The notes under the pieces were generated by a model that was not told where the DNA came from, searched no databases, and was given only the letters and a program-made list of their open reading frames with translations. Shown here piece by piece: positions 10,152-53,257 of a DNA stretch of 64,000 bases (position 1 is its first letter; each line of letters starts with the position of its first letter). The position numbers and the translations under genes were made by a program. The stretch comes from a bacterium (GTDB lineage: Bacteria; Patescibacteriota; Minisyncoccia; Phycocordibacterales; Zambryskibacteraceae). The stretch lies in contig JAUSGI010000002.1 of assembly GCA_030649135.1 (NCBI GenBank), positions 6,294 through 70,293 of the forward strand, given 5' to 3'.

Positions 10152-10154
10152 CCA

Positions 10155-13937: not shown

Positions 13938-13941
13938 CTCG

Positions 13942-14691: not shown

Positions 14692-14714
14692 ATTTCTAGA
14701 TTAGAATATGTATT

Positions 14715-15458: not shown

Positions 15459-15459
15459 G

Positions 15460-17489: not shown

Positions 17490-17494
17490 ACGGT

Positions 17495-18412: not shown

Positions 18413-18429
18413 ATATAGGCCATATTAGC

Positions 18430-34372: not shown

Positions 34373-36079
34373 TTAGAGAGGCAGGGACAAAATCACAAAT
34401 CTCCCGTCATCATACAGGGCCTTGTTTAAAGAGATGCGCTCAAGATTATCGTGAGCACGATCGAGGATGAGATATTTAACGTTAAATTGTTGGAGGAGGG
34501 TGGCTTGATCTTTTTTGACGGTCTTAAAACGCTCTACCAGCGTTTTGAAATATTCTTCCCCGCGGAGAGTAATCGAATCGGTACGTGGCGGACATTGGCG
34601 AGGACCAGCAAAACGCACCCAAACATCGCAGAGCCAGGCGCGCCGGTTTTGAGCTAGAGGCTCTAGTTCTGACGGCCCGGCGCCAGCGTAAAGCCCTAGA
34701 CCACTCTTTATGTCTTCGATCGTCAAAACATCCATGCTATGCGAGACGAGATATCTATCCTCAAGTTCGGGCCCAGAAATATTATGAAGTACCGTACCTT
34801 CTGTAAAGAGTGGGTAGTGCCGAGTCATAATCGGTATATATTCCGAAATTGAATCGTTCGCCCAAATCACAGATTGTTCTGGCACATTTTTATCTAGCCA
34901 TTTTAGCGGGCCAGCATAGGTCTGTAGATCGGCGGTATAATCACTACCACGTTCACCAAAAAACTTGAAAAAATCTAGCCCATGAGGAAGGTTTCTCACC
35001 ACTCCTACCGAGAGTATTGAGAGAAGAATCGCTACTACTATGTATTTGGTTCTGTGGGTTTTTAAAGTTTCTGAGAAATACCATTCATACAAACCGACTC
35101 CTAAAATTATCACCATCCATAAAATGACAAAACGTCCGACATGCACGCCAAGAGTCAGTTCGACGCCAGTAATGATATTTAAACACAAGCTAACGAAGAG
35201 TGCCGCACCTGTCGAGAACCAAAATACTTTTTGTTTTAAAGGCACCAGCCATGTCAAAAGCATTCCGACTGCCAACCAACGACCATAGAAAAAAACTTCT
35301 ATCGATGGAACGCGAGTGTAAACAAGACCAATGCGACTAAGGGTTTCAAAGTAATAAGGGCCCTGCATCTGCATCAAGGTATAGAAACCGAAAGGGATAA
35401 GGAGGAGTGCGGTAAAAATACCGCAGGTCAGAAGCGAGCGTAACTCTTGGAAACGTCTGGTAAACAAAAACCAGAAAAAAATAAAGGCAAAACTTAACAA
35501 GACAATATAAGAAAGATACGAGTAGACATAAAAGGCAGAAGCCGCAGCGAGCGAAAGCCAAACTATCCTCTTTCTCTCATGCGGCTCGTACAAGAACTTC
35601 AGAAGGGCAATGAGAAACATGAGAAAGAAAGGATAAACTATCTGCATAATGGTCGGCCGAAGCATGAGTGAATATAAACTGATATAGAGAAACACCGACC
35701 ACAGGAATGCCCACCCTCTCGGCAAACGCAAGAGCCGGAGCAGGGTAAAGGACAGAGCTAAAAATACAAAACTCCACGCGAACATATTAATCATAACGGC
35801 GAGATTAAACGGCACCCCAAGAAGCATTGGAATCGCTGAGACAATATCCGGCAAGAAAAACGCTGGAGCCAAATCCTTGCGGTATTCATAGACATACGGA
35901 TTGCCGAGGAGCGGGTATCCATCCACCACTTCATGCATGCGCGCATAGTAATACAAACTGTCGGTAGAACCTCTGGGTAAGACGCCCTGCCAGTTTCGCC
36001 ATCCCCCAACTTCGTATATGACAAAAATTGCTGGAATTAGTGTGGCCACCAAAGCGACGGCTAGGAACAATTTCTTCAT
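34373..36079 (-). CDS. Large polytopic membrane protein, putative GtrC/GT-C-type glycosyltransferase (paralog of 21767..23515)
   Basis: About 12 TM helices plus a C-terminal domain. It overlaps the GtrA-like gene by 4 nt. Confidence 0.45.
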   Translation of the reverse strand: MKKLFLAVALVATLIPAIFVIYEVGGWRNWQGVLPRGSTDSLYYYARMHEVVDGYPLLGNPYVYEYRKDLAPAFFLPDIVSAIPMLLGVPFNLAVMINMFAWSFVFLALSFTLLRLLRLPRGWAFLWSVFLYISLYSLMLRPTIMQIVYPFFLMFLIALLKFLYEPHERKRIVWLSLAAASAFYVYSYLSYIVLLSFAFIFFWFLFTRRFQELRSLLTCGIFTALLLIPFGFYTLMQMQGPYYFETLSRIGLVYTRVPSIEVFFYGRWLAVGMLLTWLVPLKQKVFWFSTGAALFVSLCLNIITGVELTLGVHVGRFVILWMVIILGVGLYEWYFSETLKTHRTKYIVVAILLSILSVGVVRNLPHGLDFFKFFGERGSDYTADLQTYAGPLKWLDKNVPEQSVIWANDSISEYIPIMTRHYPLFTEGTVLHNISGPELEDRYLVSHSMDVLTIEDIKSGLGLYAGAGPSELEPLAQNRRAWLCDVWVRFAGPRQCPPRTDSITLRGEEYFKTLVERFKTVKKDQATLLQQFNVKYLILDRAHDNLERISLNKALYDDGRFVILSLPL

Positions 36080-36492
36080 GAGTTTTCATTATGGATGCTA
36101 TCGGGAGAAAAAACCAGGTATTTAAACACAAAAAAACTATAGACGGCGACCAGACCGAGAACAAAAAATTGAGAGATTAGGTAATGAATATGAAGCATAT
36201 CCACACTTATGTATAGGAGTAAAGCATTAACGCCTAGATTTAAAATCTGAATTCCTAGATAAACGAGAGACTGCTGTCTGATTTTCTCTTTTGTATAGTC
36301 GTTGAAAGTGAAAAACTTCTGCATCATGAAACTCACGGCAACCGCCACGATGAAGGCTACGACGGAAGCCAGCAAATACCACATATAAAAAAAGTGTACC
36401 AAGATAAAAAGCATGGTTAGATTTATAACTGCGGCAGAACCACCGGAGATAAGATAGCGAATGGCGCGATGATTAAGGATGATTTTTATCAT
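36076..36492 (-). CDS. GtrA-family small membrane protein (polyprenyl-P-sugar flippase-like)
   Basis: 138 aa with 4 TM helices and YLISGGSAAVINL. Confidence 0.7.
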   Translation of the reverse strand: MIKIILNHRAIRYLISGGSAAVINLTMLFILVHFFYMWYLLASVVAFIVAVAVSFMMQKFFTFNDYTKEKIRQQSLVYLGIQILNLGVNALLLYISVDMLHIHYLISQFFVLGLVAVYSFFVFKYLVFSPDSIHNENS

Positions 36493-36532
36493 TTGGGTAT
36501 CTGTAAGGCGCTATGATAGTATAAACGCTAAG

Positions 36533-37090
36533 ATGATAAAAGAATACCTAGAAAAATCCTTGGCGGTAAAAAATGCCGCGCTGACCGATCAAAGCTTCCT
36601 TGAAAATGCGGAGAAAGCGGGACGGCAAATTTATGACTCGCTGATGGCCGGTAAACATATTTATATCGCCGGTGTTGGCGGAGCAGCCGCAGAGTCGCAA
36701 CATTTCTCCGCAGAACTCTTGGGTAAATACTCTGCGATGAGGAGAGCTTTTCCGGCAGTAGCCTTAACTACCGACTCCTCAATGCTTACTGCTTGGGCAA
36801 ATGATACCAGCTTTGACTTTATATTTTCGCGCCAACTTGAAGGCCTTGGAAAAGAAGGGGATATATTTGTCGCTCTCTCCGCGGGAGGAAACTCACCTTG
36901 TATCGTAGAAGCTCTTAAGACGGCAAACTCTATCGGAATGATCTCCATTGGTCTTTTGGGTAAAAGTGGCGGAAAAGCCAAAGAAATGTGCACCATTCCC
37001 ATCGTCGTCCCTTCAGATGTTACTTCTCACATTCAAGAAACCCATCTCATGCTTGTTCACTTTTTCTGCGAATATTTAGAACCGCAGTAA
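36533..37090 (+). CDS. gmhA: SIS-domain phosphoheptose isomerase (sedoheptulose-7-P isomerase)
   Basis: Motifs GVGGAAAESQHFSAEL and ALSAGGNS. The start is taken at ATG 36533; the track start at 36479 overlaps the GtrA gene. Confidence 0.7.
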   Translation: MIKEYLEKSLAVKNAALTDQSFLENAEKAGRQIYDSLMAGKHIYIAGVGGAAAESQHFSAELLGKYSAMRRAFPAVALTTDSSMLTAWANDTSFDFIFSRQLEGLGKEGDIFVALSAGGNSPCIVEALKTANSIGMISIGLLGKSGGKAKEMCTIPIVVPSDVTSHIQETHLMLVHFFCEYLEPQ

Positions 37091-37170: not shown

Positions 37171-37848
37171 ATGCCCACGATTCTCAAGGCCATTCTTTGT
37201 GATGTCGACGGAGTGCTCGTCGACACAGAGGGTCTGCATTTTCAGGCGTGGGATTGGATTTGTCGTGATATCGGAGGACAACCCCTCACTCAGGAAGAAC
37301 ACGCTACTCTCGTTGGGAAAGACGGGCCAGTCATCATGAGGGAACTTTCCCAGATGAAGGGGTTCGGCGGCGATCTGACCAAACTCAATGACCGTTGCCG
37401 AGAGAAGTACATCGAGTTACGGCAGACTGGGAACATCCCAGTCATCATGGAGAACGTTATGCTTCTTCGTGAGTTTGCCGAGCTGTACTCGGGCTTAAGG
37501 TTCGCGGCTGTTTCTTCCGATACTCACGACCATATTCAGCAGAACCTTCGGGTAGCTGGGCTTGAAAATTTCTTCGAACTGGCAGTTTCCGCCCATTCAG
37601 ACGGTTTGAAGAAGAAGCCCGCCCCCGACGTGTGGTTGGTGGCGATGAAGAGACTCGGAGTCGCTCCAGAAGAATGCCTAGCTTTCGAAGATTCACCAGC
37701 CGGAGTCGAATCTGTCACCAGCGCCGGGGTCAGGGTAGTGGCGCTACCCAGCCCCTCAACTGTATCCTGTAGCTTCCCGACCGCTCACACGGTCATCAAA
37801 CCAGGAGAAAGGAAAAACGCCAGAGAAATCCTTGCGCGCGTGATGTAG
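37171..37848 (+). CDS. HAD-IA hydrolase (beta-phosphoglucomutase/phosphatase-like), GC-rich
   Basis: DVDGVLVDTE (DxD), the motif II S/T and the K/DD motifs AFEDSPAG. Confidence 0.75.
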   Translation: MPTILKAILCDVDGVLVDTEGLHFQAWDWICRDIGGQPLTQEEHATLVGKDGPVIMRELSQMKGFGGDLTKLNDRCREKYIELRQTGNIPVIMENVMLLREFAELYSGLRFAAVSSDTHDHIQQNLRVAGLENFFELAVSAHSDGLKKKPAPDVWLVAMKRLGVAPEECLAFEDSPAGVESVTSAGVRVVALPSPSTVSCSFPTAHTVIKPGERKNAREILARVM

Positions 37849-37860: not shown

Positions 37861-37890
37861 GAGCCGGGTCCTGACCCGGCTCTTTTCAAT
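37861..37890 (+). terminator. Hairpin GAGCCGGG-tcctga-CCCGGCTC followed by TTTTCAAT
   Basis: 12 nt downstream of the HAD gene stop; it also abuts the stop of the convergent 37890 gene. Confidence 0.6.
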
Positions 37891-38381
37891 TACGATTTTT
37901 CTTTATAAATTTTAAGAATCTTTTCTATAATATTTGTCGTCGACTGAACACGGCCAGGAATAATTACCACCTTATCTACATTCTCGCGCACAAAGTCTGC
38001 TTGAATATTTTGTTCCACAGTATAATCTCCACCTTTAGTATAAATGTCAGGGTGGACTGCTTTCAAAAAAGTGCCCGGGTCTTTTTCATCAAAAATATGA
38101 ACGTAGTCGACGCAAGCCAGAGCTGCCACCACTTCCGCGCGTTCACGTTCAGGAATGATTGGACGAAGTTTTGATTTGTATTGTCTTACCGAAGCATCTG
38201 AATTTATACCCACTACTAGAATATCACCAAGCAATTTACTTTCTTCTAGAAGTATTTTCTGGCCGATGTGGAATACATCAAAAGCACCGTTGGTAGCTAC
38301 AATTTTTTTACCATGCTTTTTGAGTTCCTCGACTCTTGCTTCAAGCTCGGAGAGAGAAACAATTTTGTGAGCTGTTTTCAT
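37890..38381 (-). CDS. Heptose-1-phosphate adenylyl/nucleotidyl-transferase (HldE domain II / RfaE-II-like cytidylyltransferase fold)
   Basis: Start reassigned to ATG 38381 (MKTAHKIVSL). Carries the HxGH-type motif NGAFDVFHIGQ and the region GINSDASV. Confidence 0.7.
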   Translation of the reverse strand: MKTAHKIVSLSELEARVEELKKHGKKIVATNGAFDVFHIGQKILLEESKLLGDILVVGINSDASVRQYKSKLRPIIPERERAEVVAALACVDYVHIFDEKDPGTFLKAVHPDIYTKGGDYTVEQNIQADFVRENVDKVVIIPGRVQSTTNIIEKILKIYKEKS

Positions 38382-38409
38382 ATCAGACAGTATACAGCTG
38401 AAAAAATAC

Positions 38410-38437
38410 TTGACAAGTAGGCTAAATCTATTATAAT
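38410..38437 (+). promoter_or_regulatory. Perfect consensus sigma70-type promoter TTGACA-N16-TATAAT
   Basis: TTGACAagtaggctaaatctatTATAAT, then SD GAGGAG 6 nt before the ATG at 38477. It shares the AATACTTGACA prefix with the promoter at 37099. Confidence 0.55.
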
Positions 38438-38476
38438 CAGAAGCAGACACAATCAATATAAACGCGAGGAGAACGT

Positions 38477-39211
38477 ATGAACTTCGCTGAGTTCTGCTCA
38501 AAACAAAGCAGTATCTACGACGACATGCGGAAGCAGGAATGCGAGGAATCACGGATCACAGGGATGATGGAAGATCCCGGGCTCGTCACTAGGAGAGGCG
38601 GGTTTTTTCTCTCCCTCATTCACCCGCCTGAGTTTGCTCAGAAAGTAGCGGATTTCTCCGCCAAGGTTGGCGCCCTGATGCCAGCAATGGTTTACAGCAA
38701 CAAGGAGATACACACGACCGTCGGGTCAATTTCCACTTCGGTCATCCCACACTTCTATTTCGACGGAAACCGTGAGGACCATGCGCACCAGCTTTCCGTC
38801 ATCGAACGCGTGGCGGAGGAGACAGCAAAGAGAGTGAAAGCGGGGGTATGCAAAATTGGTTTTATTACGCCCTGCATCCTTCTGCCGAATCTCATCATCG
38901 CGCCGGGCGAAGCGAATCAGAGCGTCTTCGAAGTGACGACCGCGCTGACCGAATTCGGTACACAGATGGGGTTAGCAATGGCCCCATGCAAAAACGGCCA
39001 TGTGACAGTCAACCGCTTCACCGAAGCGAAGAGTGTAGGGGAAATATCCGATATTCTTAGGTTGATGGAGAAGGAGCCACCCTTTGGTGTCAGTCATCCG
39101 ATCGGGATCGCAGCGGGTTACACACTGCGTCACGAATCCGAACGAAATGTTACTGACCTTCGCGAAACACCCGGGCACTTCCACGGCACCAAGTTCTTCC
39201 GGTTCCAATAA
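38477..39211 (+). CDS. 2H phosphoesterase superfamily protein (LigT / cyclic phosphodiesterase-like), GC-rich
   Basis: Two H-x-T-x motifs, EIHTTVGS and NGHVTVNR, about 95 residues apart. Confidence 0.45.
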   Translation: MNFAEFCSKQSSIYDDMRKQECEESRITGMMEDPGLVTRRGGFFLSLIHPPEFAQKVADFSAKVGALMPAMVYSNKEIHTTVGSISTSVIPHFYFDGNREDHAHQLSVIERVAEETAKRVKAGVCKIGFITPCILLPNLIIAPGEANQSVFEVTTALTEFGTQMGLAMAPCKNGHVTVNRFTEAKSVGEISDILRLMEKEPPFGVSHPIGIAAGYTLRHESERNVTDLRETPGHFHGTKFFRFQ

Positions 39212-39248: not shown

Positions 39249-39971
39249 TTAATACGCGCTGATGCCATAGCCCGCAGCCTTGGCATCATCGTAGAACATT
39301 CGTACTGTTTCGAGCGAGTAGACGTCGTGGTCCTTGCCGACGAGCGACAACTTCTTGAGGATGTCGTTGGTTGCCGTGATGATGTGACAACCGACGGAGT
39401 CGGCCTGGAAGACATTGAGAAGCTCGCGTGGGCTGGCCCAGATGAGCTCAGCCTTCGGCCTCGCTCTCATGATCTCGACTGCCTGTTGCATTAACGGCAT
39501 CGGATCAACCCCGGTGTCAGCGATACGCCCTGCAAATACCGAGATGATGGCCGGTGTCCCTGGTGAGAGATGCTCGGTCACGGCCTTCACTTGTTCCAGA
39601 GTGAGTAACGCCGTGACGTTGAGCTTCACGCCAGCGTGCGACAGCCGCTCGATAAGCGGGCCACTCGACTCCCCTGTCGTGTTGGTGACTGGAATCTTGA
39701 CGTAGACGTTATCGCCCCACGAGGCGATGACGCGCGCTTGCGCCTCCATCTCATCGAAGTCGTCAGCGAAAACTTCGAACGACACCGGGCGATCCGAGAT
39801 AGTGGCGAGCACTTCCTTGGCAAACGCCTTGTAGTCAGTGACACCCGCCTTCCTCATCAGCGTAGGGTTGGTCGTGAACCCTTTAATGAGGGGGTTCGCG
39901 TACATCTCCTTCATGCCGGTGAGGTCCGCGCCGTCTGCGAATAACTTGATTTTGAGTTCTTGGATGTTCAT
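39249..39971 (-). CDS. tal: Transaldolase / fructose-6-phosphate aldolase (short Tal/FSA type), GC-rich
   Basis: TTNPTL and the Schiff-base lysine region VYVKIPVT. Its ATG overlaps the stop of the upstream kinase gene (ATGA). Confidence 0.85.
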   Translation of the reverse strand: MNIQELKIKLFADGADLTGMKEMYANPLIKGFTTNPTLMRKAGVTDYKAFAKEVLATISDRPVSFEVFADDFDEMEAQARVIASWGDNVYVKIPVTNTTGESSGPLIERLSHAGVKLNVTALLTLEQVKAVTEHLSPGTPAIISVFAGRIADTGVDPMPLMQQAVEIMRARPKAELIWASPRELLNVFQADSVGCHIITATNDILKKLSLVGKDHDVYSLETVRMFYDDAKAAGYGISAY

Positions 39972-40933
39972 GAGTTTTTCTCCTTTAAGATTTTCACTAA
40001 ATCTTTCCTTCTGGGTGGCATAGTACCATGAATTTTAGTTGAAAGTGCTCCCCAGATATTGGCTATCCTAAGAGATTCTTCAGGTCGGTTTCTATCTCCA
40101 AGACTAAAAGCCGCCAAAAAAGCATCGCCTGCCCCGCAAACATCGACCGCTTTTACTTTATATGGCCGGCTTTTTATATACTGGTCACTAAATATAGCTA
40201 TGGAGCCTAGACCACCCAGTTTAACCACAACATTTTTTAGCTTTAACTTTTTCATTATTACCAAAAGAGACTGCTCAGGCTTTTGGAGATTAAACTTAGG
40301 GTACACACTCTTAGCTTCTTTTTGGTTTAAAAACATCGTGTCTACCCCTTTATATAAATGGTGATTCGAAGGACGGTGAAAAACTTGCACATCGACATGC
40401 AAAGGTTTTTTATATTTCTTACTCATAGCAACAATATTTTTAATCAACTTTTTTGAGAGCATTCCATGCTGGGGGTCCATAATAACAACAACGTCTACAT
40501 GTGGGGCATTAGCTTCCACTAATTTAATTATTTTTTTCTCCAGATCGGAATTAATGTAGTGATTATCAACTTTGTTAACTTGTAGGAGTTTCAGATTTTT
40601 GTCATACCATCTTCTCTTAACAGTCGTTTTCCGGGTCGGATCTATTAAAAAAATCTTTTTTAATTTTGGATGTGTCCACGAATCATAATATTTCGCATCT
40701 TCATCGTCACCCAAGATGGTAACAAAAGTTACCCTCCCCCCGAGATTTAAAATATGACTGGCAATCAGTCCATTACCACCGAAAAATATTGATGACTTTC
40801 TCTCTTCCATTTCTGGCGCAGGAGCATCAGGAGACAGACCGATAGTATTGCCATAAATATAAATATCCAGTATAGTGTCGCCCACTAGCAACACCTTTTT
40901 ATCTTTAAATGACCTTATAATATCTGGCTTCAT
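39968..40933 (-). CDS. PfkB-family sugar kinase, heptose-7-phosphate kinase-like (HldE domain I / RfaE-I)
   Basis: Motifs LLVGDTILDIYIYG, GGNGLIASHILNLGG and DVCGAGDAFLAAFSLG. Confidence 0.7.
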   Translation of the reverse strand: MKPDIIRSFKDKKVLLVGDTILDIYIYGNTIGLSPDAPAPEMEERKSSIFFGGNGLIASHILNLGGRVTFVTILGDDEDAKYYDSWTHPKLKKIFLIDPTRKTTVKRRWYDKNLKLLQVNKVDNHYINSDLEKKIIKLVEANAPHVDVVVIMDPQHGMLSKKLIKNIVAMSKKYKKPLHVDVQVFHRPSNHHLYKGVDTMFLNQKEAKSVYPKFNLQKPEQSLLVIMKKLKLKNVVVKLGGLGSIAIFSDQYIKSRPYKVKAVDVCGAGDAFLAAFSLGDRNRPEESLRIANIWGALSTKIHGTMPPRRKDLVKILKEKNS

Positions 40934-40957: not shown

Positions 40958-41734
40958 ATGAAATATAAATCTATTCTTCTAGATGTCGACGGGACACTTG
41001 TCGCTGTCGGACCCAATACAATTCCATCTGAAAGAGTGCGAGAAGTCCTAAGCCATGCCAAATATGTGGCACATGTTTCTCTTGTTTCTGGACGTTGTCT
41101 TGATTGGCTCAAAGAAATCTTTCGAGTCCTTGATTTGACAGCTCCTTCTATTATCAACGGTGGTTCACAAATCATTAATCCAAAAACGGGAGAGATTCTT
41201 TGGGAGCGGCCAATCACGCAAGAAGATGTGGGAAAAGTGCTAAGAATAGTTACAAGAGACGGGATTCCTTTTGTGGTCAGTGACAACGGTATTGAGTATG
41301 AGAATCCACCCCAGTCCGAATTTACTAATCCCCTTGCTATAAAACTTTCGTATTTTGATTCTAAAGAGAAATCTGACCAGTGTCTAAAGATTCTAGAATC
41401 GATACAGGGTATTTCGGCCCATAAAACTTTTTCCTGGAATAAAGAAAGAAACTACATAATGGATATATACATCACTCATAGAGAAGCCACCAAACATCAC
41501 GCTGCCGAAGAATTAGCAAAAATTTTAGGAATTGAAACTCATGAAATGATAGGGGTTGGTGATGCTCGAAACGACGTTCCCCTGCTCAATGTGTGTGGAC
41601 TAAAGGTGGCTATGGGTAACGCCGACGACAAACTGAAGAAAATTGCTCATTACATTGCCCCTAGTGTAGACGAGGACGGTGTGGCTCACGTGGTGGAGAA
41701 GTTTATTCTTTCTCAATTGGTCTGTTCTGGCTAG
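40958..41734 (+). CDS. HAD-IIB (Cof/YidA-like) sugar phosphatase
   Basis: LLDVDGTL and GVGDARNDVPLL. Confidence 0.7.
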   Translation: MKYKSILLDVDGTLVAVGPNTIPSERVREVLSHAKYVAHVSLVSGRCLDWLKEIFRVLDLTAPSIINGGSQIINPKTGEILWERPITQEDVGKVLRIVTRDGIPFVVSDNGIEYENPPQSEFTNPLAIKLSYFDSKEKSDQCLKILESIQGISAHKTFSWNKERNYIMDIYITHREATKHHAAEELAKILGIETHEMIGVGDARNDVPLLNVCGLKVAMGNADDKLKKIAHYIAPSVDEDGVAHVVEKFILSQLVCSG

Positions 41735-42860
41735 CTTCTTTGAGAGCTTCTACTGCCGCAGTTATAACATCTTCAAGACGGGTGGACTCCGCTATGCGCT
41801 CCGCTTCTTTAACATCGTGATTCCGCGTGTTCATAATACAAAGTAATGGTTTGGGTCCTCCGGGGGGAAAGACCATCTTGTGAATTTTGCCTTGCGGCGG
41901 CTGGTCCCATGGATTAACTGGGCCGAGGATATCGACCGTTGGGATATTAAAGGCTTCAGCAATGTATAGAGGGCCAGTATTGACACTCACAAAAACATCC
42001 AGCTTCGATATGATCGCCTTTAATTCGTCTATTGATACAGAAGTGGTATCAGTCACCATTGATTTATCCTCGATCGCCAACATCATTTCATTAGACTCGC
42101 GTAGGTCGTTCCTACCGCCAATAACAAAAATATGGACGCTAAACTTTTCGATAAGATGATTCGCTACTTTGGCAAAATTTTTTGGACTCCATTGCTTTTC
42201 TTTATTACCAGAACCGGCTGCAATACCAACGATATATTTGTATGGTTCACATATTTGAGAAATTATCTCCGCAGCCCTTTTTTCAGCAGTTTCGGAAAAG
42301 CCAAGGTGTTTGGTGGTATCGTCTGTAAAAATACCGAGTGATTCGAGAGCTTTCAATCTTTCTCTGGGAGCATATCCATCCAACTGATGCGGAAAGGTCT
42401 TAATAAGCCTCTGAAGAATTTTATAGGGCCTGGTCACATCATGGGCTACACCTCCCACGGCAGCCGGAGCTATCACTAAGGGAATCCCGGCAAGGTAAAG
42501 TAGAGAGGTGTGTTTAAATGATGGGCCAGTCACTATCGCTACTTCAGGATGATATTTTTTAATACGTTCTGTAGCCCCTTCATCCTCCAGATCAACATAT
42601 TCATTAACCAATCTACTGTCCGACAAAAGTGGACGATGCAATTTAGAATTACCCGCTACGATAATACGCGCTTTCGGTAAGTGCGCTCGAATGGCACGCA
42701 AGACTGGTGTAGCACAGACCACATCGCCCAGTTTACCAGTTGGCACCACCACAATATCGGAAATGCTTTTGGGAATCTTAGTGGCAGTTCCGTGGAAAAG
42801 TGCCCTTATTAGACATTGGACAAGAAGTAGCATTCTATTGGCTCTATTTAAAAAATCCAT
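41703..42860 (-). CDS. Glycosyltransferase family 9 (ADP-heptose:acceptor heptosyltransferase, RfaF/RfaC-like)
   Basis: GT9 architecture: PTGKLGDVVCATPVLRAIR, then GIAAGSGNKEKQWSPKNF and the VNTGPLYIAEAFNIP region. Confidence 0.8.
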   Translation of the reverse strand: MDFLNRANRMLLLVQCLIRALFHGTATKIPKSISDIVVVPTGKLGDVVCATPVLRAIRAHLPKARIIVAGNSKLHRPLLSDSRLVNEYVDLEDEGATERIKKYHPEVAIVTGPSFKHTSLLYLAGIPLVIAPAAVGGVAHDVTRPYKILQRLIKTFPHQLDGYAPRERLKALESLGIFTDDTTKHLGFSETAEKRAAEIISQICEPYKYIVGIAAGSGNKEKQWSPKNFAKVANHLIEKFSVHIFVIGGRNDLRESNEMMLAIEDKSMVTDTTSVSIDELKAIISKLDVFVSVNTGPLYIAEAFNIPTVDILGPVNPWDQPPQGKIHKMVFPPGGPKPLLCIMNTRNHDVKEAERIAESTRLEDVITAAVEALKEASQNRPIEKE

Positions 42861-42888: not shown

Positions 42889-42917
42889 GGGGCGGAGAGC
42901 TTGTGACTCCCCGCCCC
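42889..42917 (-). terminator. Hairpin GGGGCGGAGAG / CTCCCCGCCCC
   Basis: Downstream (minus strand) of the rSAM gene stop, followed by an A/T-rich tract. Confidence 0.5.
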
Positions 42918-42923: not shown

Positions 42924-44450
42924 TCAAGTAGTTTTTCCGCCCTCCCATCGCGTCCCGATTTCTATCTGGAGACGCTTTCTGCGGTACTCCTCCGAGTTGA
43001 CGCCAAACTCCGCCCATTGTTGCAGTTCCTCGATTCTTTCCGGAGGTACTGTCGTGTTCTTCATGACAGCATTCCTCCAGTTAAAAATATCGGGGTCGAA
43101 GTCTTGCACCAAGTACCCGTCACGCAGAGCCAAATCATGTAGGTTACTGCCGGGCAGAGGAACAGGGATCTTGAAAGAACAGTAATCTGCCCCCGCACCC
43201 ACCAGCCGCCGGCCGAGCTCGATCGAGGACATCATCTCTGCCTCGGTCTCGTCCGGGAAACCGATCATCATGTTGATGGGGCACGTGATACCGATATTCC
43301 TCGCAACCCTCACCAGCTCGACTACATCGAGTCGTTCATGGTTGAGCTTCCTCGTCGCATGCTGGTCAAGAATGCGCTGGGAAGCTGACTCCACCGGGAA
43401 AACGATCTGTGTGAGACCGCAGTCATAGAGGAGTTGCAGGAACTCTACATCGATGACCGGCTTGCCTCCGACGCTTCCCTTGAGAAAGTGCACCAGATTC
43501 ACTCCGTTCACGTCAGCGAGCTTGAGCCCCAGGCCTCGGACTTTCCCGAGAATCTTACGCATCCGCGGCTTGTTGGCCAGGAGCGTATCATCCTCGAGGT
43601 AGACTTTTGTGACACCAAGGCTCTTGAGTATTGAGAGCTCTTCGAACACCCGCGCTTCGGACTTGAAGCGCAACTTGGCGATCCCGCCACTCTCCTCTTC
43701 ATTTTCACTTTCTTTAGAGATGTGGCAGTACGAGCACTTGAAAATACATCCGCGGGATGTTTGCATGTTCCCGGAACGCTCTGGGTCTTTGAGAAAGGCC
43801 CTTCCGCCAGCTGCTTCGGCACGATCGTAATGCATCCAGGGAAGCTTGTGCCATGCCGGGATGGGCAGAGCATCAAGATTAGTGAGCGTATCCCCCACTT
43901 GAGGAAAACGTCTCACGATTCTCCCATTCTGCATGGTGACTGTTCCAGAGACGGCGAGACTTTCCCCCGCTTCCCAGGCTTGGATGACCTCGACGACCAC
44001 CCGCTCACCTTCGGTATTGCAAATGGCATCTACGCCGGCCGCGAGGAACCGTTTGTGAAGAGCTCGGGCGTTAACGCCACCGGCAATGACCAGGATTTCC
44101 GGAGATACTGCCTTGGCCGCCTTGACGACTTCAAGTGCCATCCTGTGCTGCGGAGTGAAAATGGAGCTAAGACCGACAACGTTGTAGCCACCACGAGCGA
44201 TGACCTCACTCATCCGATCGGTCGTCATGCCGATACGGGTGAGGCCGTTTTCCTGCATGACAAGCTTGTCGAAGGTGTCTTCAAGCTTGTCATCCGGCGT
44301 GCCGACATTGGCGTCGAGCAACTCCGACTCAATACCGGCTCGTTCGAGCGAGGCATCGAGATACAAGAGACCGAGCGAACCATCGACACGACGGGCTTCT
44401 CTCTTCGCCAACTGGGTAGGATGGTAAATGAGCAGAGCTTTTGCCTTCAC
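42924..44450 (-). CDS. B12-binding domain radical SAM enzyme (class B rSAM, methyltransferase-like), GC-rich
   Basis: N-terminal cobalamin-binding-like Rossmann region and the radical SAM cluster motif SRGCIFKCSYCH. GTG start preceded by SD AGGGGGG. Confidence 0.8.
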   Translation of the reverse strand: MKAKALLIYHPTQLAKREARRVDGSLGLLYLDASLERAGIESELLDANVGTPDDKLEDTFDKLVMQENGLTRIGMTTDRMSEVIARGGYNVVGLSSIFTPQHRMALEVVKAAKAVSPEILVIAGGVNARALHKRFLAAGVDAICNTEGERVVVEVIQAWEAGESLAVSGTVTMQNGRIVRRFPQVGDTLTNLDALPIPAWHKLPWMHYDRAEAAGGRAFLKDPERSGNMQTSRGCIFKCSYCHISKESENEEESGGIAKLRFKSEARVFEELSILKSLGVTKVYLEDDTLLANKPRMRKILGKVRGLGLKLADVNGVNLVHFLKGSVGGKPVIDVEFLQLLYDCGLTQIVFPVESASQRILDQHATRKLNHERLDVVELVRVARNIGITCPINMMIGFPDETEAEMMSSIELGRRLVGAGADYCSFKIPVPLPGSNLHDLALRDGYLVQDFDPDIFNWRNAVMKNTTVPPERIEELQQWAEFGVNSEEYRRKRLQIEIGTRWEGGKTT

Positions 44451-44508
44451 GGTGTGTTCCCCCCTTGATTTTGGAACGTTTCTTGAAACAGATTAACAGA
44501 AATATCAA

Positions 44509-45684
44509 TTAAGTCAAGGTCTTTTTTATAAATTCGGCGATAGCGATGCCGCGTTTTTCCCAAGTGTATTTATCTTTAGTAATCCAGGCTTGGTTCGACA
44601 AACTTTGGGCCAGTTCTCGGTCATTATAGATTTTTAGGATAGCCTTCGCCCACCCTTTCGGAGTATTCGTCTCTATAATCAGGGCATCGGCTCCGTCGGT
44701 AAGCACCTCTTCGATACATGCTGTATGACCACCAACAATCGGCCGGCGACTAGCAAGTGCCGGAAACATTTTGGCAGGAGAATCCCCTATTAAATCTTTC
44801 TTTCGTTTTGGGATAAGAATGATATCGAATGCCTGTAGATATTTCGGTATCTCGCTCCTTTCCTGCCACGGCACAATAATTACCCGCCCTTGGACACCAC
44901 TTTCTTGCGCAATTTCTCGTAACCATCCCGCATTCTCGTTCAGTTCACCCACAATCACAGCCACGATATTTGTCGGTAGAGATGCAAGGCTCTTCACGAT
45001 ATCGTCCACTTCATAGTAGTCATTATTCGGATTGGCTCCGACCACACCGGTGTATCCTATAAGAAATAAATCGTTGGGAAGCTCTAATTCTTTCCGAAAT
45101 GTGTATCTGTCTTGCGAATAGTCAAACCATGAATCCTCGGCCGCGCTACACAGAGAGAGCAGAATACTGTGATTGGATTTTTGATAATACCGTTTAAGTC
45201 CAGAACTGATGGCAATTACGCCGTCCGCCCATCTTACTGAAACCGTATTCAAAAATTGCCTAGGCTTGCTTTCCAGCACCGAATGTATCTCGAAAAACAC
45301 TTTTTTCTGCAAAATCATCTTCGCCGCCAAGACTGCGGGGAAAAGCGACTCGTCTCGAAAATAAACCGCGTCGAATTCTCCCGTATGCATGAGGAAAAAC
45401 CAGGTGAGACGAAGATTGGCAACAAAAAACATAAATAGTTCATACCAACTCTTACCGCCATACCTGGAGACGGTATTTGTCGCTTGTAGGCAGACAATAT
45501 CAAATGGCTGATGGATACCCATCTTGCTGAAGAAGACGTGCCTGTCTCTATCTTGGTCCGTTGTCATAAACCTGACTTGAATATCTTTGTCGGTATTTAC
45601 GGCTTCACATGTTTTAGCCAGATTATAAACATTGGTCCTTCCGGCCAAAAGATTTACCCTAGAGATAAAGAGTATGCGTATCAT
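44509..45684 (-). CDS. Glycosyltransferase, GT-B fold (GT4-like)
   Basis: C-terminal Glycos_transf_1-like region with conserved acidic residues. Confidence 0.65.
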   Translation of the reverse strand: MIRILFISRVNLLAGRTNVYNLAKTCEAVNTDKDIQVRFMTTDQDRDRHVFFSKMGIHQPFDIVCLQATNTVSRYGGKSWYELFMFFVANLRLTWFFLMHTGEFDAVYFRDESLFPAVLAAKMILQKKVFFEIHSVLESKPRQFLNTVSVRWADGVIAISSGLKRYYQKSNHSILLSLCSAAEDSWFDYSQDRYTFRKELELPNDLFLIGYTGVVGANPNNDYYEVDDIVKSLASLPTNIVAVIVGELNENAGWLREIAQESGVQGRVIIVPWQERSEIPKYLQAFDIILIPKRKKDLIGDSPAKMFPALASRRPIVGGHTACIEEVLTDGADALIIETNTPKGWAKAILKIYNDRELAQSLSNQAWITKDKYTWEKRGIAIAEFIKKTLT

Positions 45685-50891: not shown

Positions 50892-51114
50892 GTGGAGGGC
50901 CTTGTGAAATACGATTTGAGCCTGTTTTTTGTCGATTCTACAGCCCCCTTCAAGTGTTGCTCAAATCGTAATTCAATATCATTAGTATACCCGACATAAA
51001 AATTTCCATCTTTTTGACTCTGTAGAACATAGACGTAGAATTTTTCATCAAATACAGACATGATATTGAATTATTTCACTGGGCAAGTCCAACGATGGAA
51101 AAAACCCAAAATAG

Positions 51115-51967
51115 GGTCACTTTTATCGACTTTCTGGGTGATCACCAGCAGTTTCATTGGATTTCCTCGCTCCTATTTTCTTATATGCGGAAGGTTAAAC
51201 CTTGCGTATTGGTCTTACTTCCATCATAATTCTAGTATGACACGCCCAATTATATTATCAATCGGAGAATTTTATCACATTTATAATCGTGGCACTGAAA
51301 AAAGAAAGATTTTTTTATCCAAACATGACTACGAACGTTTTATAGCTCTTCTCTATCTTTGTAACTCCACTATCTCCGTCCGTATAGACATGCGACGCAA
51401 ATCTTTAGATGAAACCCTCGATACTGACCGTGATAAGAATCTGGTAGATATTGGTAGCTACTGTTTAATGCCCAACCACTTTCATATTCTACTTAAAGAA
51501 AGAGTTGAAAATGGTATTAGCCTATTTATGCAAAAATTAACTACGGCTTATACTATGTATTTCAATAAAAAATACGAACGTAACGGATCTCTTTTCCAAG
51601 GAACTTTTAAGGCAGAGCATGCGGATAAAGACAGTTACTTGAAATATCTATTCGCATATATTCACTTAAATCCAGTCAAACTGATTGAACCCGAATGGAA
51701 GAAGGTGGGTATCAAAAACCGCACAAATGCTAAGCAGTTTCTGAGAAATTACCCTTATTCTAGTTATTTTGAATATACCGGAATCGACAGAAAATGGAAG
51801 ACTATTCTAACGCCTAAGGCGTTTCCAGACTATTTTGATACTACCGATGGCTTTCAGAAAATGATTGATTACTGGCTTGAGTTTAGTTCTGAACAATCCT
51901 AGTGTAGTGCGTAAGGTTTAACCTTGTTCAAAAAGGTCATTTTTATCGACTTTCTGGGTAACTACCA
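51115..51967 (+). mobile_element. IS200/IS605-like unit: Y1-transposase gene flanked by 33-bp direct repeats and subterminal palindromes
   Basis: GGTCACTTTTATCGACTTTCTGGGTGATCACCA at 51115-51147 matches GGTCATTTTTATCGACTTTCTGGGTAACTACCA at 51935-51967. The palindromes AAGGTTAAACCTT at 51191-51203 and AAGGTTTAACCTT at 51913-51925 are subterminal. Confidence 0.5.
51237..51902 (+). CDS. tnpA: IS200/IS605-family Y1 (HUH) transposase / RAYT-like
   Basis: YHIYNRGTEKRKIF, HUH motif LMPNHFHILL and the catalytic Tyr region GSLFQGTFKAEH..YLFAYIHLNP. Start reassigned to ATG 51237. Confidence 0.75.
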   Translation: MTRPIILSIGEFYHIYNRGTEKRKIFLSKHDYERFIALLYLCNSTISVRIDMRRKSLDETLDTDRDKNLVDIGSYCLMPNHFHILLKERVENGISLFMQKLTTAYTMYFNKKYERNGSLFQGTFKAEHADKDSYLKYLFAYIHLNPVKLIEPEWKKVGIKNRTNAKQFLRNYPYSSYFEYTGIDRKWKTILTPKAFPDYFDTTDGFQKMIDYWLEFSSEQS

Positions 51968-51973: not shown

Positions 51974-53257
51974 TCATTGAGTTGGTGTGTCTGGGGTCTT
52001 TTCCGCATTTTCAGTTTGCTCTTCTTTTTTCATAAGTTCAAATGCTTGGCCGAGATATCTCAATACATGGTGCCCGACAAGATAATGGAATAGGAGGCCA
52101 ACCAGTCCGGCAAGAATGACGAGCAAGAGGAGATAAACGAGATTGTCTTTGATAAATTTGCTAATAAGCGATGACGACGAGACTGCCGCTGTGACATCTC
52201 TGATATTGCCGGCCTTATCGAAGACTCGCACCATAACGTTTAAGTCGCCGCGAGCGAGCGGTATCTGAAAAGGACTCTCCGTTTGGACAAAAACGGGGGA
52301 GACGGTAACTGGTTGGCTTTTATCAATTATTCCGACCTCATAATAATCCACTCCCGACAGATTATCCGTAGTAAAGAAAGAGATTATCGACCGTTCGACC
52401 AAATTCACCGCTGCCAACAAATAACTAACTTCCGGTTTGAAGTCTGCCGGCGGGACAGTGTCAATTCTTATCAGAAAATGCCCAGTCGTCCCCCAGACTC
52501 CATTTTTATTGGCTTTAATATGAAAATACCATAAGCCATCGGCCAAACTTTCAAACGCTTCTGAAGTCTCGTTGGCAGTAATGGAGTTCTCTGGGATTGT
52601 GGATGGTTTATCATCCAAAATATAACTAAATCCCGAAACGCCGGCATCCCGATCCCATGAGATTACCGGACTGTCATTGTTGTACCACTCACCCTGGAAC
52701 GGATGGGTCTCCGAGAAGACCTTCACCCCTTCCGGAGCCTTCGGCACAATCGCATATTCCGCCCTGCCCAACTCTACTTCGGCTTCCGTACCTTGGCCAT
52801 CATTCAAGAGTACTTTTGAATTAGCGCCAAAAGAGACCGTTGCCCAGCCAGTCCTCTTGGCTTTAAAAGTGATTGTCCCCACTAAACCGGAGTTCGTAGT
52901 AATACCGTCCGGTATGACACCGACATAACTGGCCGTACCGCGAGTGTTATCGTAACTTGGCGGTTCCACCCAGACACCGATAATAGAGAGGCCGCTCGAC
53001 GGTTTTATGATTTCCAGCTTATCTTTGTCGAAGTTAACCCTGATTTCAATACCATTGATTTCGGCGCCGTCTGTATCGACTAGAATCGGGATATTGAAGG
53101 TTGAGTTCTCGACAAAGCTGGCGGCACGGGGAGAGAATGAAAGTTCGATTTTCGGAATTAATTGCGAGACATCCAGAGAGACTGTCTCGGCGTATGTATG
53201 AGACCAGATGAGAGCCGTGAGAACAAACAGTAGAAGTATTCTTGAAATACGTGCCAT
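51974..53257 (-). CDS. Cohesin-domain surface protein with signal peptide and C-terminal TM anchor
   Basis: Signal peptide, then a cohesin-like beta-sandwich (INGIEIRVNFDKDKLEIIKP...GLVGTITFKAKRTGWATVSF), a second conserved domain (VMVRVFDKAGNIRD) and a C-terminal TM helix. Confidence 0.6.
   Translation of the reverse strand: MARISRILLLFVLTALIWSHTYAETVSLDVSQLIPKIELSFSPRAASFVENSTFNIPILVDTDGAEINGIEIRVNFDKDKLEIIKPSSGLSIIGVWVEPPSYDNTRGTASYVGVIPDGITTNSGLVGTITFKAKRTGWATVSFGANSKVLLNDGQGTEAEVELGRAEYAIVPKAPEGVKVFSETHPFQGEWYNNDSPVISWDRDAGVSGFSYILDDKPSTIPENSITANETSEAFESLADGLWYFHIKANKNGVWGTTGHFLIRIDTVPPADFKPEVSYLLAAVNLVERSIISFFTTDNLSGVDYYEVGIIDKSQPVTVSPVFVQTESPFQIPLARGDLNVMVRVFDKAGNIRDVTAAVSSSSLISKFIKDNLVYLLLLVILAGLVGLLFHYLVGHHVLRYLGQAFELMKKEEQTENAEKTPDTPTQ

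What the first reader, a model, noticed from the sequence alone, without database searches (positions are those of the whole stretch)
42924..44450. B12-binding radical SAM enzyme embedded between heptosyltransferase and GT4 genes
Class-B radical SAM enzymes (cobalamin-binding N-domain plus CxxxCxxC, here SRGCIFKCSYCH) typically C-methylate unactivated carbons. In a sugar cluster this predicts a C-methylated or otherwise radical-modified sugar, a branched-chain sugar. Together with at least seven SAM methyltransferase domains elsewhere in the cluster, the glycan is likely heavily methylated. The gene is GC-rich with its own SD (AGGGGGG, GTG start) and terminator, so it appears acquired.
Basis: inference. 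Interest (0 to 1): 0.5.

Follow-up and report, generated by a model that had tools for sequence, protein, structure and literature searches.

The report
Heptose-pathway B12-type radical SAM enzyme
The gene is a real cobalamin-domain radical SAM enzyme from an uncharacterised, sharply bounded family that sits almost only next to heptose-sugar pathway genes in ultra-small bacteria, archaea and a phage, so it most likely tailors a surface heptose, though its chemistry is unproven and it was not recently acquired.

Summary
Window 42924-44450 (-) encodes a 508-aa protein with a Pfam B12-binding domain, a Radical_SAM core and CIFKCSYC, lying between GT9 and GT4 genes. It has an SD, a GTG start and a strong 3' hairpin.

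The fold is class B (AF2 pLDDT 89). However, cobalamin methylases (MgmA, CysS, TsrM) and cobalamin-free AprD4 are equally close, at about 16-19% identity, and no curated family threshold is met. C-methylation is therefore plausible, not shown.

**Main new result:** the protein belongs to a tight family. In 27 of 32 well-flanked loci it lies within 10 kb of at least 3 of 4 heptose-nucleotide functions (transaldolase, GmhA-like isomerase, kinase, nucleotidyltransferase). This holds in CPR bacteria, DPANN archaea, other phyla and one tailed phage.

The window clade swapped the GDP-type kinase, nucleotidyltransferase and GT2 for ADP-type PfkB, adenylyltransferase and GT9, yet kept the rSAM. Heptose cassettes usually lack the rSAM (2 of 38), so it looks like an accessory tailoring enzyme.

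"Acquired" is not supported. High GC (41 of 44 loci) and the terminator-like hairpin (55% versus 9% of other genes) are family-wide traits, and the gene sits in a block syntenic with relatives.

The parts
42924..44450 (-). Class-B-type radical SAM gene (508 aa), the finding itself
   Evidence: ORF; Pfam B12-binding + Radical_SAM; AF2 pLDDT 89, pTM 0.89; 944 homologs
43986..44375 (-). N-terminal cobalamin-binding-type Rossmann domain (residues 26-155); carries the invariant GGVNAR and TEGE motifs
43215..43763 (-). Radical SAM core (residues 230-412) with the cluster motif C235-x3-C239-x2-C242 at nt 43725-43748
   Evidence: PF04055, 49.6 bits; all three Cys and H243 are invariant in 28 homologs
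44459..44466 (-). Shine-Dalgarno-like AAGGGGGG, 8 nt upstream of the GTG start
   Evidence: Sequence; most homolog loci also have AGGAG-type motifs at this position
42889..42917 (-). Terminator-like hairpin directly after the stop codon, between the rSAM and GT9 genes
   Evidence: 12 bp with 9 GC pairs; dG -25.6, z -4.66; the feature recurs after the rSAM gene in 26/47 loci vs 9% of other genes, p=2e-14
41703..42860 (-). GT9 heptosyltransferase-family gene, immediately downstream; the likely transferase for the (modified) ADP-heptose
   Evidence: PF01075; best NCBIfam hits are LPS heptosyltransferases I/II/III, all below cutoff; same position in L001-L003
44509..45684 (-). GT4-type glycosyltransferase, immediately upstream
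   Evidence: PF00534/PF13692
40958..41734 (+). Cof-type HAD-IIB phosphatase, syntenic with the rSAM in the ADP-type clade; candidate heptose bisphosphate phosphatase
   Evidence: PF08282; TIGR00099, 126.8 bits; 58-63% identical in L002, L003 and L005 at the same position
39968..40933 (-). PfkB kinase resembling HldE domain I (heptose-7-P kinase)
   Evidence: PF00294; TIGR02198 rfaE_dom_I, 160.8 bits, below cutoff 345
39249..39971 (-). Transaldolase (sedoheptulose-7-P supply); in the same cluster as the transaldolase found in 34 rSAM loci
   Evidence: TIGR02134, 373.8 bits, above cutoff 282; cluster c2
37890..38552 (-). Adenylyltransferase resembling HldE domain II (the true start is probably the internal Met near nt 38384)
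   Evidence: PF01467; TIGR02199 rfaE_dom_II, 151.6 bits, below cutoff 181.5, with the match starting at residue 74
36479..37090 (+). GmhA-like sedoheptulose-7-P isomerase (SIS domain)
   Evidence: PF13580; phosphoheptose isomerase models at 171.6 and 155 bits, below cutoffs; cluster c5 occurs in 30 rSAM loci
34373..36079 (-). Polytopic membrane protein (about 9 TM segments plus a C-terminal soluble domain), cluster c9; candidate GT-C-like extracytoplasmic transferase
   Evidence: No Pfam or NCBIfam hit; 9 hydrophobic segments; present in 16 rSAM loci and in 0/35 rSAM-less heptose loci

Best explanation
The gene encodes a member of an uncharacterised, sharply delimited subfamily of class-B (cobalamin-domain) radical SAM enzymes. 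Its job is to tailor a heptose made by the neighbouring genes.

Proposed pathway in this genome:
1. Transaldolase supplies sedoheptulose-7-P.
2. The GmhA-like isomerase makes glycero-manno-heptose-7-P.
3. The split HldE-like kinase and adenylyltransferase, with a HAD phosphatase, make an ADP-heptose.
4. The rSAM uses its [4Fe-4S]/SAM site to abstract a hydrogen from the sugar. Most probably it then transfers a methyl group from methylcobalamin, giving a C-methylated (branched or chain-extended) heptose.
5. The adjacent GT9 transfers that sugar to a cell-surface acceptor.

In most other genomes the same enzyme works with the GDP-heptose route and an ArnC-like polyprenyl-phosphate GT2 plus a GT-C-like membrane protein.

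Shown: the domain architecture and fold, the family boundaries, the synteny with heptose genes, and the accessory (tailoring-like) distribution.

Inferred: the substrate (a heptose, at an unknown stage), cobalamin use, and methylation as the chemistry.
For: - Architecture: Pfam B12-binding + Radical_SAM. The AF2 model has pLDDT 89. Full-length structural matches are to MgmA, CysS, TsrM, TokK and OxsB. The N-domain shows sequence similarity to cobalamin-binding members but not to AprD4, and it carries invariant GG and EGE motifs.
- Family: only 74 of 1.84 billion cluster representatives reach E<=1e-30. About 17 full-length representatives have >=38% identity, followed by a drop to a ~30% continuum.
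- Context: within 10 kb of the rSAM in 47 loci there is GT2 (36 loci), transaldolase (34), NTP-transferase (33), HddA-like GHMP kinase (31), GmhA-like SIS (30) and GmhB-like HAD (26). 27/32 loci with >=8 kb on both sides have >=3 of 4 heptose functions.
- The immediate neighbours are the NTP-transferase upstream (18/44) and a GT2 or GT9 downstream (18/44).
- The ADP-type clade (window, L001-L003, L005) is monophyletic and nested within the GDP-type loci. The rSAM therefore stayed with the heptose while the activation and transfer genes were replaced.
- Reciprocal test: only 2/38 heptose cassettes found via the kinase carry the rSAM, while TAL, SIS and NTP-transferase are equally frequent with and without it. 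This is the pattern expected of a tailoring enzyme.
- A phage carries TAL-SIS-epimerase-rSAM-kinase as one block.
- Methylation: it is the commonest class-B chemistry (reviews PMC11659888, PMC12931638). The best curated hit, and the best hit of all sister sequences, is the SD_1168 methyltransferase model.
Against: - No direct evidence for cobalamin binding or methyl transfer.
- HpnJ and BchE (non-methylating) are the next-best models for the sister sequences.
- No cobalamin riboswitch in the window or in 6 related loci.
- Hosts (CPR, DPANN) generally cannot make cobalamin (my own knowledge, not tested here).
- Switching from GDP-alpha- to ADP-beta-heptose without unusual divergence of the rSAM (61% identity to the GDP-type L004) argues that the nucleotide is not a major recognition element. 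The substrate stage is therefore unresolved.
- All heptose-pathway assignments in the window except the transaldolase are below NCBIfam equivalog cutoffs.
Confidence: 0.5

Rival explanations
1. Same pathway and substrate class, but non-methylating radical chemistry. Options are an AprD4-like dehydration/deoxygenation of a vicinal diol (for example the exocyclic 6,7-diol of the heptose), an epimerisation, or an OxsB/HpnJ-like ring rearrangement. The N-domain would then bind substrate, or cobalamin in a non-methyl-transfer role.
For: AprD4 acts on a sugar diol and is essentially tied as closest structure. It is the top PDB hit by sequence profile, with OxsB second. HpnJ and BchE models score next after SD_1168 for the sister sequences. 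AprD4 and ArsL show that a Rossmann-like N-domain need not bind cobalamin (PMC12931638). In 19/33 rSAM-positive modules a DAO-type flavoprotein or GFO-DAO fusion co-occurs, against 0/35 rSAM-less ones; this could be a redox partner for a dehydration/reduction sequence.
Against: The N-domain aligns in sequence with cobalamin-binding members and not with AprD4. The NCBIfam AprD4 model reaches only 43 of 500 bits, starting at residue 153. The window clade lacks the DAO/GFO partners. Methylation is the majority chemistry in class B.
Confidence: 0.3
2. The rSAM does not act on the sugar. It modifies the lipid carrier, the acceptor polymer or protein, or the glycan after transfer, and is only co-located with the heptose genes.
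For: The enzyme is usually adjacent to a glycosyltransferase (GT2 or GT9). It tolerated a complete swap of nucleotide and anomer. Class-B enzymes are known to methylate lipids (HpnP and HpnR, listed in PMC12931638).
Against: The phage block TAL-SIS-epimerase-rSAM-kinase contains early pathway enzymes, and no transferase was recognised within 8 kb. The NTP-transferase is the commonest upstream neighbour and never has a terminator between it and the rSAM (0/41). The only functions common to both variants are those that make the heptose.
Confidence: 0.1
3. The pathway makes an eight-carbon sugar, not a heptose. Transaldolase + isomerase + kinase + phosphatase + nucleotidyltransferase is exactly the LmbR/LmbN/LmbP/LmbK/LmbO logic that builds GDP-octose in lincomycin biosynthesis, and the rSAM tailors that octose. 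This rival concerns the sugar's identity, not the enzyme class.
For: The enzyme-family set is the same, including epimerase, GFO-type oxidoreductase and DegT aminotransferase in many loci (PMC4351081 Table 2). All heptose-specific models are below their cutoffs. A transaldolase is built into the cassette in 25/38 and 27/32 loci.
Against: The best family hits are consistently the heptose enzymes (GmhA, HddA, GmhB, HldE domains). The window transaldolase passes the cutoff of the housekeeping staph-type transaldolase family. A GT9 'heptosyltransferase' is the adjacent transferase. No Lmb sequences were available for a direct comparison.
Confidence: 0.12
4. One reading: the gene is a recent foreign acquisition into this cluster, signalled by its high GC and its own SD and terminator.
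For: Gene GC 0.552 against flanks of about 0.44, and GC3 0.64. A strong hairpin follows the gene. The module is found in many phyla and in a phage, so it does move horizontally.
Against: The GC excess is a family property: 41/44 loci, mean +5.7% GC. The hairpin is also a family property: 26/47 against 9% of other genes. The gene order is conserved with L002, L003 and L005, and the neighbours are as similar (55-81%) as the rSAM itself (58-73%). The ADP-type clade is monophyletic.
Confidence: 0.08

Closest known systems
SD_1168 (Sden_1168) family B12-binding radical SAM P-methyltransferases (NCBIfam NF038361)
   Same: Best-scoring curated model, aligned over nearly the full length including the N-domain (residues 4-478). 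It is also the best model for all ten nearest out-of-family sequences.
   Different: 116 bits against a 575-bit cutoff, so this is not a member. The context is heptose biosynthesis, not phosphinate/phosphonate chemistry.
GenK / GenD1 / Fom3-type class-B C-methyltransferases acting on sugars or nucleotide-linked substrates
   Same: The proposed logic is the same: a cobalamin-dependent radical SAM methylates an unactivated, often hydroxyl-bearing sp3 carbon of a sugar-like substrate (listed as Csp3 methyltransferases in PMC12931638).
   Different: No sequences or models of these enzymes were available here, so relatedness was not tested. Those enzymes act in antibiotic pathways of actinomycetes, not in surface-glycan heptose modules.
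AprD4, radical SAM 1,2-diol dehydratase (PDB 6fd2)
   Different: It does not bind cobalamin (PMC12931638). The sequence match covers only the radical SAM core and C-terminal part (from residue 228). The NCBIfam AprD4 model reaches 43 of 500 bits.
Structurally solved cobalamin-dependent radical SAM enzymes: MgmA (9ccb), CysS (9n1b), TsrM (6wte/6wtf), TokK (7kdx), OxsB (5ul2-4)
   Different: Only 15-19% identity. Their substrates are proteins, peptides, carbapenems, tryptophan or nucleotides. None is linked to heptose.
HpnJ and BchE (non-methylating class-B enzymes)
   Same: Same superfamily region. They are the second- and third-best models for the sister sequences. HpnJ is thought to rearrange a sugar ring (my own knowledge).
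   Different: About 66 bits against cutoffs of 578 and 481. There is no hopanoid or bacteriochlorophyll context.
GDP-/ADP-glycero-manno-heptose pathways (GmhA, HddA/HldE, GmhB, HddC) and the lincosamide GDP-octose pathway (LmbR/N/P/K/O)
   Same: The surrounding genes reproduce these pathways' enzyme families (PMC4351081).
   Different: Neither known pathway includes a radical SAM enzyme. Most assignments here are below equivalog cutoffs.

Membership tests
Radical SAM superfamily | CxxxCxxC cluster-binding motif within a partial TIM-barrel core (PF04055) | tested here: met
   C235/C239/C242 are invariant in 28 homologs; PF04055 at 49.6 bits > GA 29.5; the predicted fold matches many radical SAM structures
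Class B (cobalamin-dependent) radical SAM enzymes | N-terminal Rossmann-type cobalamin-binding domain (PF02310) fused to the radical SAM core | tested here: met
   PF02310 at 57 bits > GA 32.1; full-length structural matches to MgmA, CysS, TsrM, TokK and OxsB; the N-domain alone matches corrinoid proteins
Class B (cobalamin-dependent) radical SAM enzymes | Actual binding of cobalamin | not testable with these tools
   Only indirect evidence: the N-domain aligns with cobalamin binders and not with AprD4. AprD4 and ArsL show that the fold alone is insufficient (PMC12931638). No cobalamin riboswitch nearby.
Class B radical SAM methyltransferases | Methyl transfer from methylcobalamin to a substrate radical (two SAM consumed; SAH plus 5'-deoxyadenosine formed) | not testable with these tools
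   No sequence signature separates methylases from other class-B chemistries; the structural neighbours are mixed
NF038361 Sden_1168 P-methyltransferase family | NCBIfam equivalog cutoff of 575 bits | tested here: not met
   116 bits
HpnJ (TIGR03471) / BchE (TIGR02026) | Equivalog cutoffs of 577.6 and 481.35 bits | tested here: not met
   65.9 and 65.8 bits
AprD4 family diol dehydratases (NF033070) | Equivalog cutoff of 500 bits | tested here: not met
   43 bits, with the match starting at residue 153
GenK/Fom3-like sugar C-methyltransferases | Phylogenetic grouping with characterised members | not tested
   No sequences or profiles of GenK, GenD1 or Fom3 were available in the tools. PhpK subfamily model: 57.8 of 600 bits.
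ADP-glycero-manno-heptose pathway (context genes of the window) | GmhA, HldE domain I, HldE domain II and GmhB at equivalog level | tested here: inconclusive
   The best hits are the right families but fall below cutoffs: GmhA 171.6/276, rfaE_dom_I 160.8/345, rfaE_dom_II 151.6/181.5. The phosphatase is a Cof-type HAD, not GmhB-type.
The family defined here (heptose-module class-B rSAM) | >=38% identity over the full length, plus synteny with TAL, GmhA-like, kinase and nucleotidyltransferase genes | tested here: met
   50-85% identity to more than 100 members; the window has all four functions within 8 kb; 27/32 well-flanked loci have >=3 of 4

The most novel reading that the evidence does not exclude
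This family performs a previously undescribed cobalamin-dependent radical modification of heptose, for example a GenK-like C-methylation giving a branched or 8-carbon (8-deoxy-octose-type) sugar. That modified sugar would be displayed on the surfaces of CPR bacteria, DPANN archaea and some other lineages, and the module is spread by phages. If so, these ultra-small, cobalamin-auxotrophic organisms spend scavenged B12 on tailoring a surface glycan. A new sugar and a new class-B reaction would be waiting in a five-to-nine-gene cassette that can be expressed heterologously.
Probability: 0.4. Interest if true: 0.7.

Novelty: new variant of a known kind. Interest (0 to 1): 0.55.

Why it matters
Class-B radical SAM enzymes are a large and mostly uncharacterised group. 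Every characterised sugar-acting member comes from antibiotic or lipid pathways. The 2026 review of the field does not mention heptose, and full-text searches found no paper linking the two.

This analysis gives a sharply bounded subfamily with a specific, testable substrate hypothesis: a heptose phosphate or NDP-heptose. It also defines a compact cassette, and the distribution centres on CPR and DPANN organisms, whose envelopes are almost unknown chemically.

The family offers a concrete route to a new sugar modification. It also provides a marker for a distinctive surface glycan in uncultivated lineages, and an example of a phage carrying the module inside its structural gene block.

Tried and rejected
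- PDB sequence searches with the single protein and with the family profile gave only weak, non-discriminating hits (AprD4 44 bits, OxsB 42, TokK 33). Homology cannot assign the chemistry.
- The AFDB library was not available.
- Rfam scans of the window and of six related loci found no cobalamin riboswitch and no other RNA apart from one tRNA.
- Five literature searches for radical SAM plus heptose, CPR or polysaccharide found nothing relevant. A Campylobacter HS:19 paper mentions an unrelated radical SAM.
- I considered that the transaldolase marks an rSAM-specific, LmbR-like octose route. It is equally common in rSAM-less cassettes (24/35 vs 25/33), so it is not specific to the rSAM. I kept the idea only as a minor rival about the sugar's identity.
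- I considered GC content as evidence of acquisition and rejected it after the 44-locus comparison.
- A home-made methyltransferase HMM found no methyltransferase beyond those Pfam had already found.
- A direct comparison with GenK, Fom3 and LmbR was not possible because no sequences were available.
- Pocket-level inspection of the AF2 model was not possible because coordinates are not exposed.
Full report
**Observation.** The ORF is real and lies where stated: 42924..44450 on the minus strand, 508 aa, GTG start. It contains SRGCIFKCSYCH, with the cluster cysteines at residues 235, 239 and 242 (nt 43725-43748). Pfam finds a B12-binding domain (residues 26-155, 57 bits) and a Radical_SAM domain (230-412, 49.6 bits), both above gathering thresholds. 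The flanking genes are a GT9 family member (41703-42860) and a GT4-type Glycos_transf_1 (44509-45684), both on the same strand. An AAGGGGGG motif sits 8 nt upstream of the GTG, and the start matches the N-termini of homologs. A perfect 12-bp hairpin (dG -25.6 kcal/mol, z -4.66) lies between the stop codon and the GT9 gene. The gene is GC-rich: 0.552, with GC3 0.64, against 0.442 for the window.

**What the protein is.** No NCBIfam equivalog is met. The best model is the Sden_1168 P-methyltransferase at 116 of 575 bits. The TIGR04013 (MJ_1487), RiPP C-methyltransferase, ApyD, HpnJ, BchE and PhpK models score 58-84 bits, and AprD4 scores 43 bits.

All are at 16-19% identity. The N-domain alone matches corrinoid-binding proteins and MetH, and Foldseek agrees. 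A family profile searched against PDB sequences gives only weak hits (AprD4 44 bits, OxsB 42, TokK 33, CysS 30.5, MgmA 30, TsrM 28). The AprD4 match covers only the core from residue 228, while OxsB, TokK, CysS and TsrM align through the N-domain. A 2026 review states that AprD4 and ArsL do not bind cobalamin despite a Rossmann-like domain (PMC12931638).

So the class-B architecture is confirmed. Genuine cobalamin binding is likely but untested. The chemistry cannot be assigned by homology.

**Family.** The protein database returns 944 hits, and the top 120 are 50-100% identical. Where these are named, they are overwhelmingly Parcubacteria/Patescibacteria. An exhaustive search of 1.84 billion cluster representatives finds 17,386 class-B relatives at E<=1e-3 but only 74 at E<=1e-30. 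About 17 full-length representatives have >=38% identity, after which scores fall to a ~30% continuum. Ten of those nearest outsiders all score best against the Sden_1168 model (97-349 bits, still below cutoff); for most of them HpnJ and BchE come next. The window's family is therefore a tight, divergent offshoot of the SD_1168/HpnJ/BchE-like region of class-B sequence space.

**Genomic context.** This is the main result. I fetched 51 loci from reference genomes, called ORFs and clustered all neighbours. Within 10 kb of the rSAM in 47 loci the recurrent families are:

| Family | Loci |
|---|---|
| Membrane-anchored GT2 (best hit ArnC-type polyprenyl-phosphate transferase) | 36 |
| Transaldolase | 34 |
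| Sugar-1-P nucleotidyltransferase | 33 |
| GHMP kinase (best hit HddA) | 31 |
| SIS isomerase (GmhA-like) | 30 |
| NAD epimerase/dehydratase | 27 |
| HAD-IIIA phosphatase (GmhB-type) | 26 |
| Class-I methyltransferase (MT10) | 16 |
| ~600-aa polytopic membrane proteins c9 and c24 (8-11 TM) | 16 and 6 |
| GFO/IDH/MocA oxidoreductase | 15 |
| DAO-type flavoprotein (sometimes fused to GFO) | 19 |

(Sources.)

The typical order is NTP-transferase, rSAM, GT2, GFO-DAO, HAD, GHMP kinase, SIS, TAL, methyltransferase. Of 32 loci with at least 8 kb on both sides, 27 carry at least 3 of the 4 heptose-nucleotide functions and 31 carry at least one. The loci come from many CPR lineages. They also come from Woesearchaeota and from Pelagibacteraceae-labelled, Elusimicrobiota, Nitrospirae and Dehalococcoidales bins.

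**The window variant.** In the window and its four closest relatives (L001, L002, L003, L005), the GDP-type genes are replaced by the ADP-heptose set:
- a PfkB kinase (rfaE domain I, 160.8 bits)
- a separate adenylyltransferase (rfaE domain II, 151.6 bits)
- a Cof-type HAD
- a GT9 in place of the GT2

The transaldolase (TIGR02134, 373.8 bits, above cutoff), the GmhA-like isomerase and the c9 membrane protein remain. In a neighbour-joining tree these five rSAMs form one clade nested inside the GDP-type CPR sequences. A CPR survey independently reports the ADP-heptose pathway only in Paceibacteria (PMC9166423). The rSAM thus stayed with the heptose while the kinase, nucleotidyltransferase, anomer and transferase were exchanged. 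This ties its role to the sugar skeleton and suggests that the nucleotide is not a key recognition element.

**Reciprocal test.** Starting from an alignment of the module's HddA-like kinase, I fetched 80 metagenome loci. Among the 38 loci of at least 9 kb, 25 have the transaldolase, 26 the isomerase and 27 the nucleotidyltransferase. Only two have a true family rSAM, at 65-66% identity. The core heptose genes are equally frequent with and without the rSAM. Several genes track the rSAM:

| Gene | rSAM-positive loci | rSAM-negative loci |
|---|---|---|
| DAO flavoprotein | 19/33 | 0/35 |
| MT10 | 14/33 | 0/35 |
| ArnC-like GT2 | 28/33 | 5/35 |
| c9 membrane protein | 11/33 | 0/35 |

Caveat: the two sets come from different collections and taxa, so part of this contrast may be taxonomic. 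The asymmetry is that the rSAM almost always comes with heptose genes, whereas heptose genes usually come without it. That is the signature of an accessory tailoring enzyme, not a core biosynthetic step. The rSAM-less cassettes instead carry an NDP-sugar 6-dehydrogenase and a classical SDR.

**'Acquired'?** The rSAM gene is GC-richer than the median flanking gene in 41 of 44 loci (mean +5.7% GC, +7.5% GC3). A hairpin plus T-run lies within 60 nt of its stop codon in 26/47 loci, against 69/785 other genes (Fisher p=2e-14). With a co-directional next gene the figures are 19/32 against 40/610 (p=1.5e-13). The NTP-transferase that usually precedes the rSAM never has such an element (0/41).

The window block is syntenic with L002, L003 and L005, and the neighbours are as similar (55-81%) as the rSAM itself (58-73%). 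Better candidates for recent insertions are three GC-rich plus-strand ORFs with no counterpart in the syntenic relatives: 33552-34310, 37171-37848 and 38477-39211. Over longer timescales the module clearly moves horizontally, across bacterial and archaeal phyla.

**Mechanism.** The best-supported reading is that the enzyme tailors the heptose made by its neighbours through radical chemistry.

Methylation is the most probable chemistry for three reasons:
- It dominates class B (PMC11659888, PMC12931638).
- The closest curated family, for this protein and for its sister sequences, is a methyltransferase.
- The N-domain resembles those of cobalamin binders.

By analogy with GenK (my own knowledge), methylation of a hydroxyl-bearing carbon such as C7 would give an 8-deoxy-octose-type sugar.

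An AprD4-like dehydration of the exocyclic diol, an epimerisation, or an OxsB/HpnJ-type rearrangement cannot be excluded. The stage of action (heptose phosphate, NDP-heptose or transferred sugar) is also unresolved.

The transaldolase-isomerase-kinase-phosphatase-nucleotidyltransferase set is the same logic as the lincosamide GDP-octose route (PMC4351081). A C8 backbone therefore remains a minor possibility.

**Known or new?** Full-text searches found no paper linking a cobalamin-type radical SAM to heptose or to CPR glycans. The 2026 review of the enzyme class lists no such member and does not contain the word heptose. I rate this a new variant of a known kind: a known enzyme class, in a new and well-delimited subfamily, with a new pathway association and a testable substrate hypothesis.

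Noticed in passing
L053 (IMGVR_UViG_3300049725_000006) 5429-10357; head gene 91-1161; adaptor 14235-15203; tail 16076-17068: A tailed phage contig carries transaldolase, GmhA-like isomerase, epimerase, a family rSAM and an HddA-like kinase as one block. The block lies between its major head protein (phrog_10, E 6.6e-48) and its head-tail adaptor and major tail protein genes. Its rSAM and kinase are 60% and 68% identical to those of a Dehalococcoidales bin (L031). Six other IMG/VR contigs (L054-L059) carry more distant relatives (36-42%), some next to epimerase, DegT or NTP-transferase genes.
   Followed up: partly
47 loci; in the window 42889-42917 (-): A GC-rich hairpin plus T-run directly follows the rSAM gene in 55% of loci, against 9% of other genes (p=2e-14). 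This holds even when the next gene is co-directional. The upstream NTP-transferase never has one (0/41). This suggests a conserved transcript end, attenuator or mRNA-stabilising element at this exact position inside the operon.
   Followed up: yes
window 33552-34310 (+), 37171-37848 (+), 38477-39211 (+): Three GC-rich ORFs (GC 0.585, 0.54 and 0.53) lie on the strand opposite to the cluster and have no counterpart in the syntenic loci L002 and L003. They are better candidates for recent insertions than the rSAM. 37171-37848 is a beta-phosphoglucomutase-family HAD. 38477-39211 has no Pfam or NCBIfam hit but shows two H-x-T-x motifs (IHTTVG, GHVTVN) about 95 residues apart, reminiscent of 2H phosphoesterases (by eye only).
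   Followed up: no
window 51060-51902 (+): An IS200-like Y1 transposase domain (PF01797) sits at the edge of the glycan cluster, on the opposite strand.
   Followed up: no
window 51974-53257 (-) and 54947-56287 (-): Proteins with a cohesin domain, and with a dockerin plus a bacterial Ig domain, lie next to the glycan cluster. They are possible surface proteins and candidate glycosylation targets.
   Followed up: no
window 13023-19113 (-): A second sugar-activation block: NAD epimerase, a CMP-sugar-type cytidylyltransferase (CTP_transf_3, 179 bits), SDR, zinc alcohol dehydrogenase, xylose-isomerase-like TIM barrel, D-2-hydroxyacid dehydrogenase and a glucosamine-6-P-isomerase/6PGL-like protein. 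This suggests an unusual CMP-activated sugar or polyol.
   Followed up: no
window 24134-25813 (-): A fusion of a lysyl-phosphatidylglycerol-synthase-type transmembrane region (PF03706) with a class-I methyltransferase domain.
   Followed up: no
clusters c13/c15 in the related loci, e.g. L042:247-1350 (-), L012:12535-14520 (+): A DAO-type FAD oxidoreductase, often fused to a GFO/IDH/MocA domain, is found in 19/33 rSAM-positive heptose modules and 0/35 rSAM-negative ones. It has no PDB sequence relative at E<0.01. It is absent from the window clade.
   Followed up: partly
L024, gene 18 of my ORF call (second *rSAM*): One locus carries two family-related rSAM genes. The second is a deep-branching paralog at the base of the tree.
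   Followed up: no
L032, L033, L035 (Alphaproteobacteria/Pelagibacteraceae-labelled bins, flank GC 0.21-0.25): Very AT-rich marine bins carry GT2-rSAM-TAL-kinase-NTP-transferase modules. A cobalamin-type enzyme would be unexpected in SAR11-like genomes if the binning is right.
   Followed up: no
window 6100-9448: A Wzy_C/O-antigen-ligase-like protein with TPR repeats and a Wzx-type flippase (Polysacc_synt) lie at the other end of the roughly 45-kb glycan supercluster, next to housekeeping genes (SecA, Obg, DsbB).
   Followed up: no
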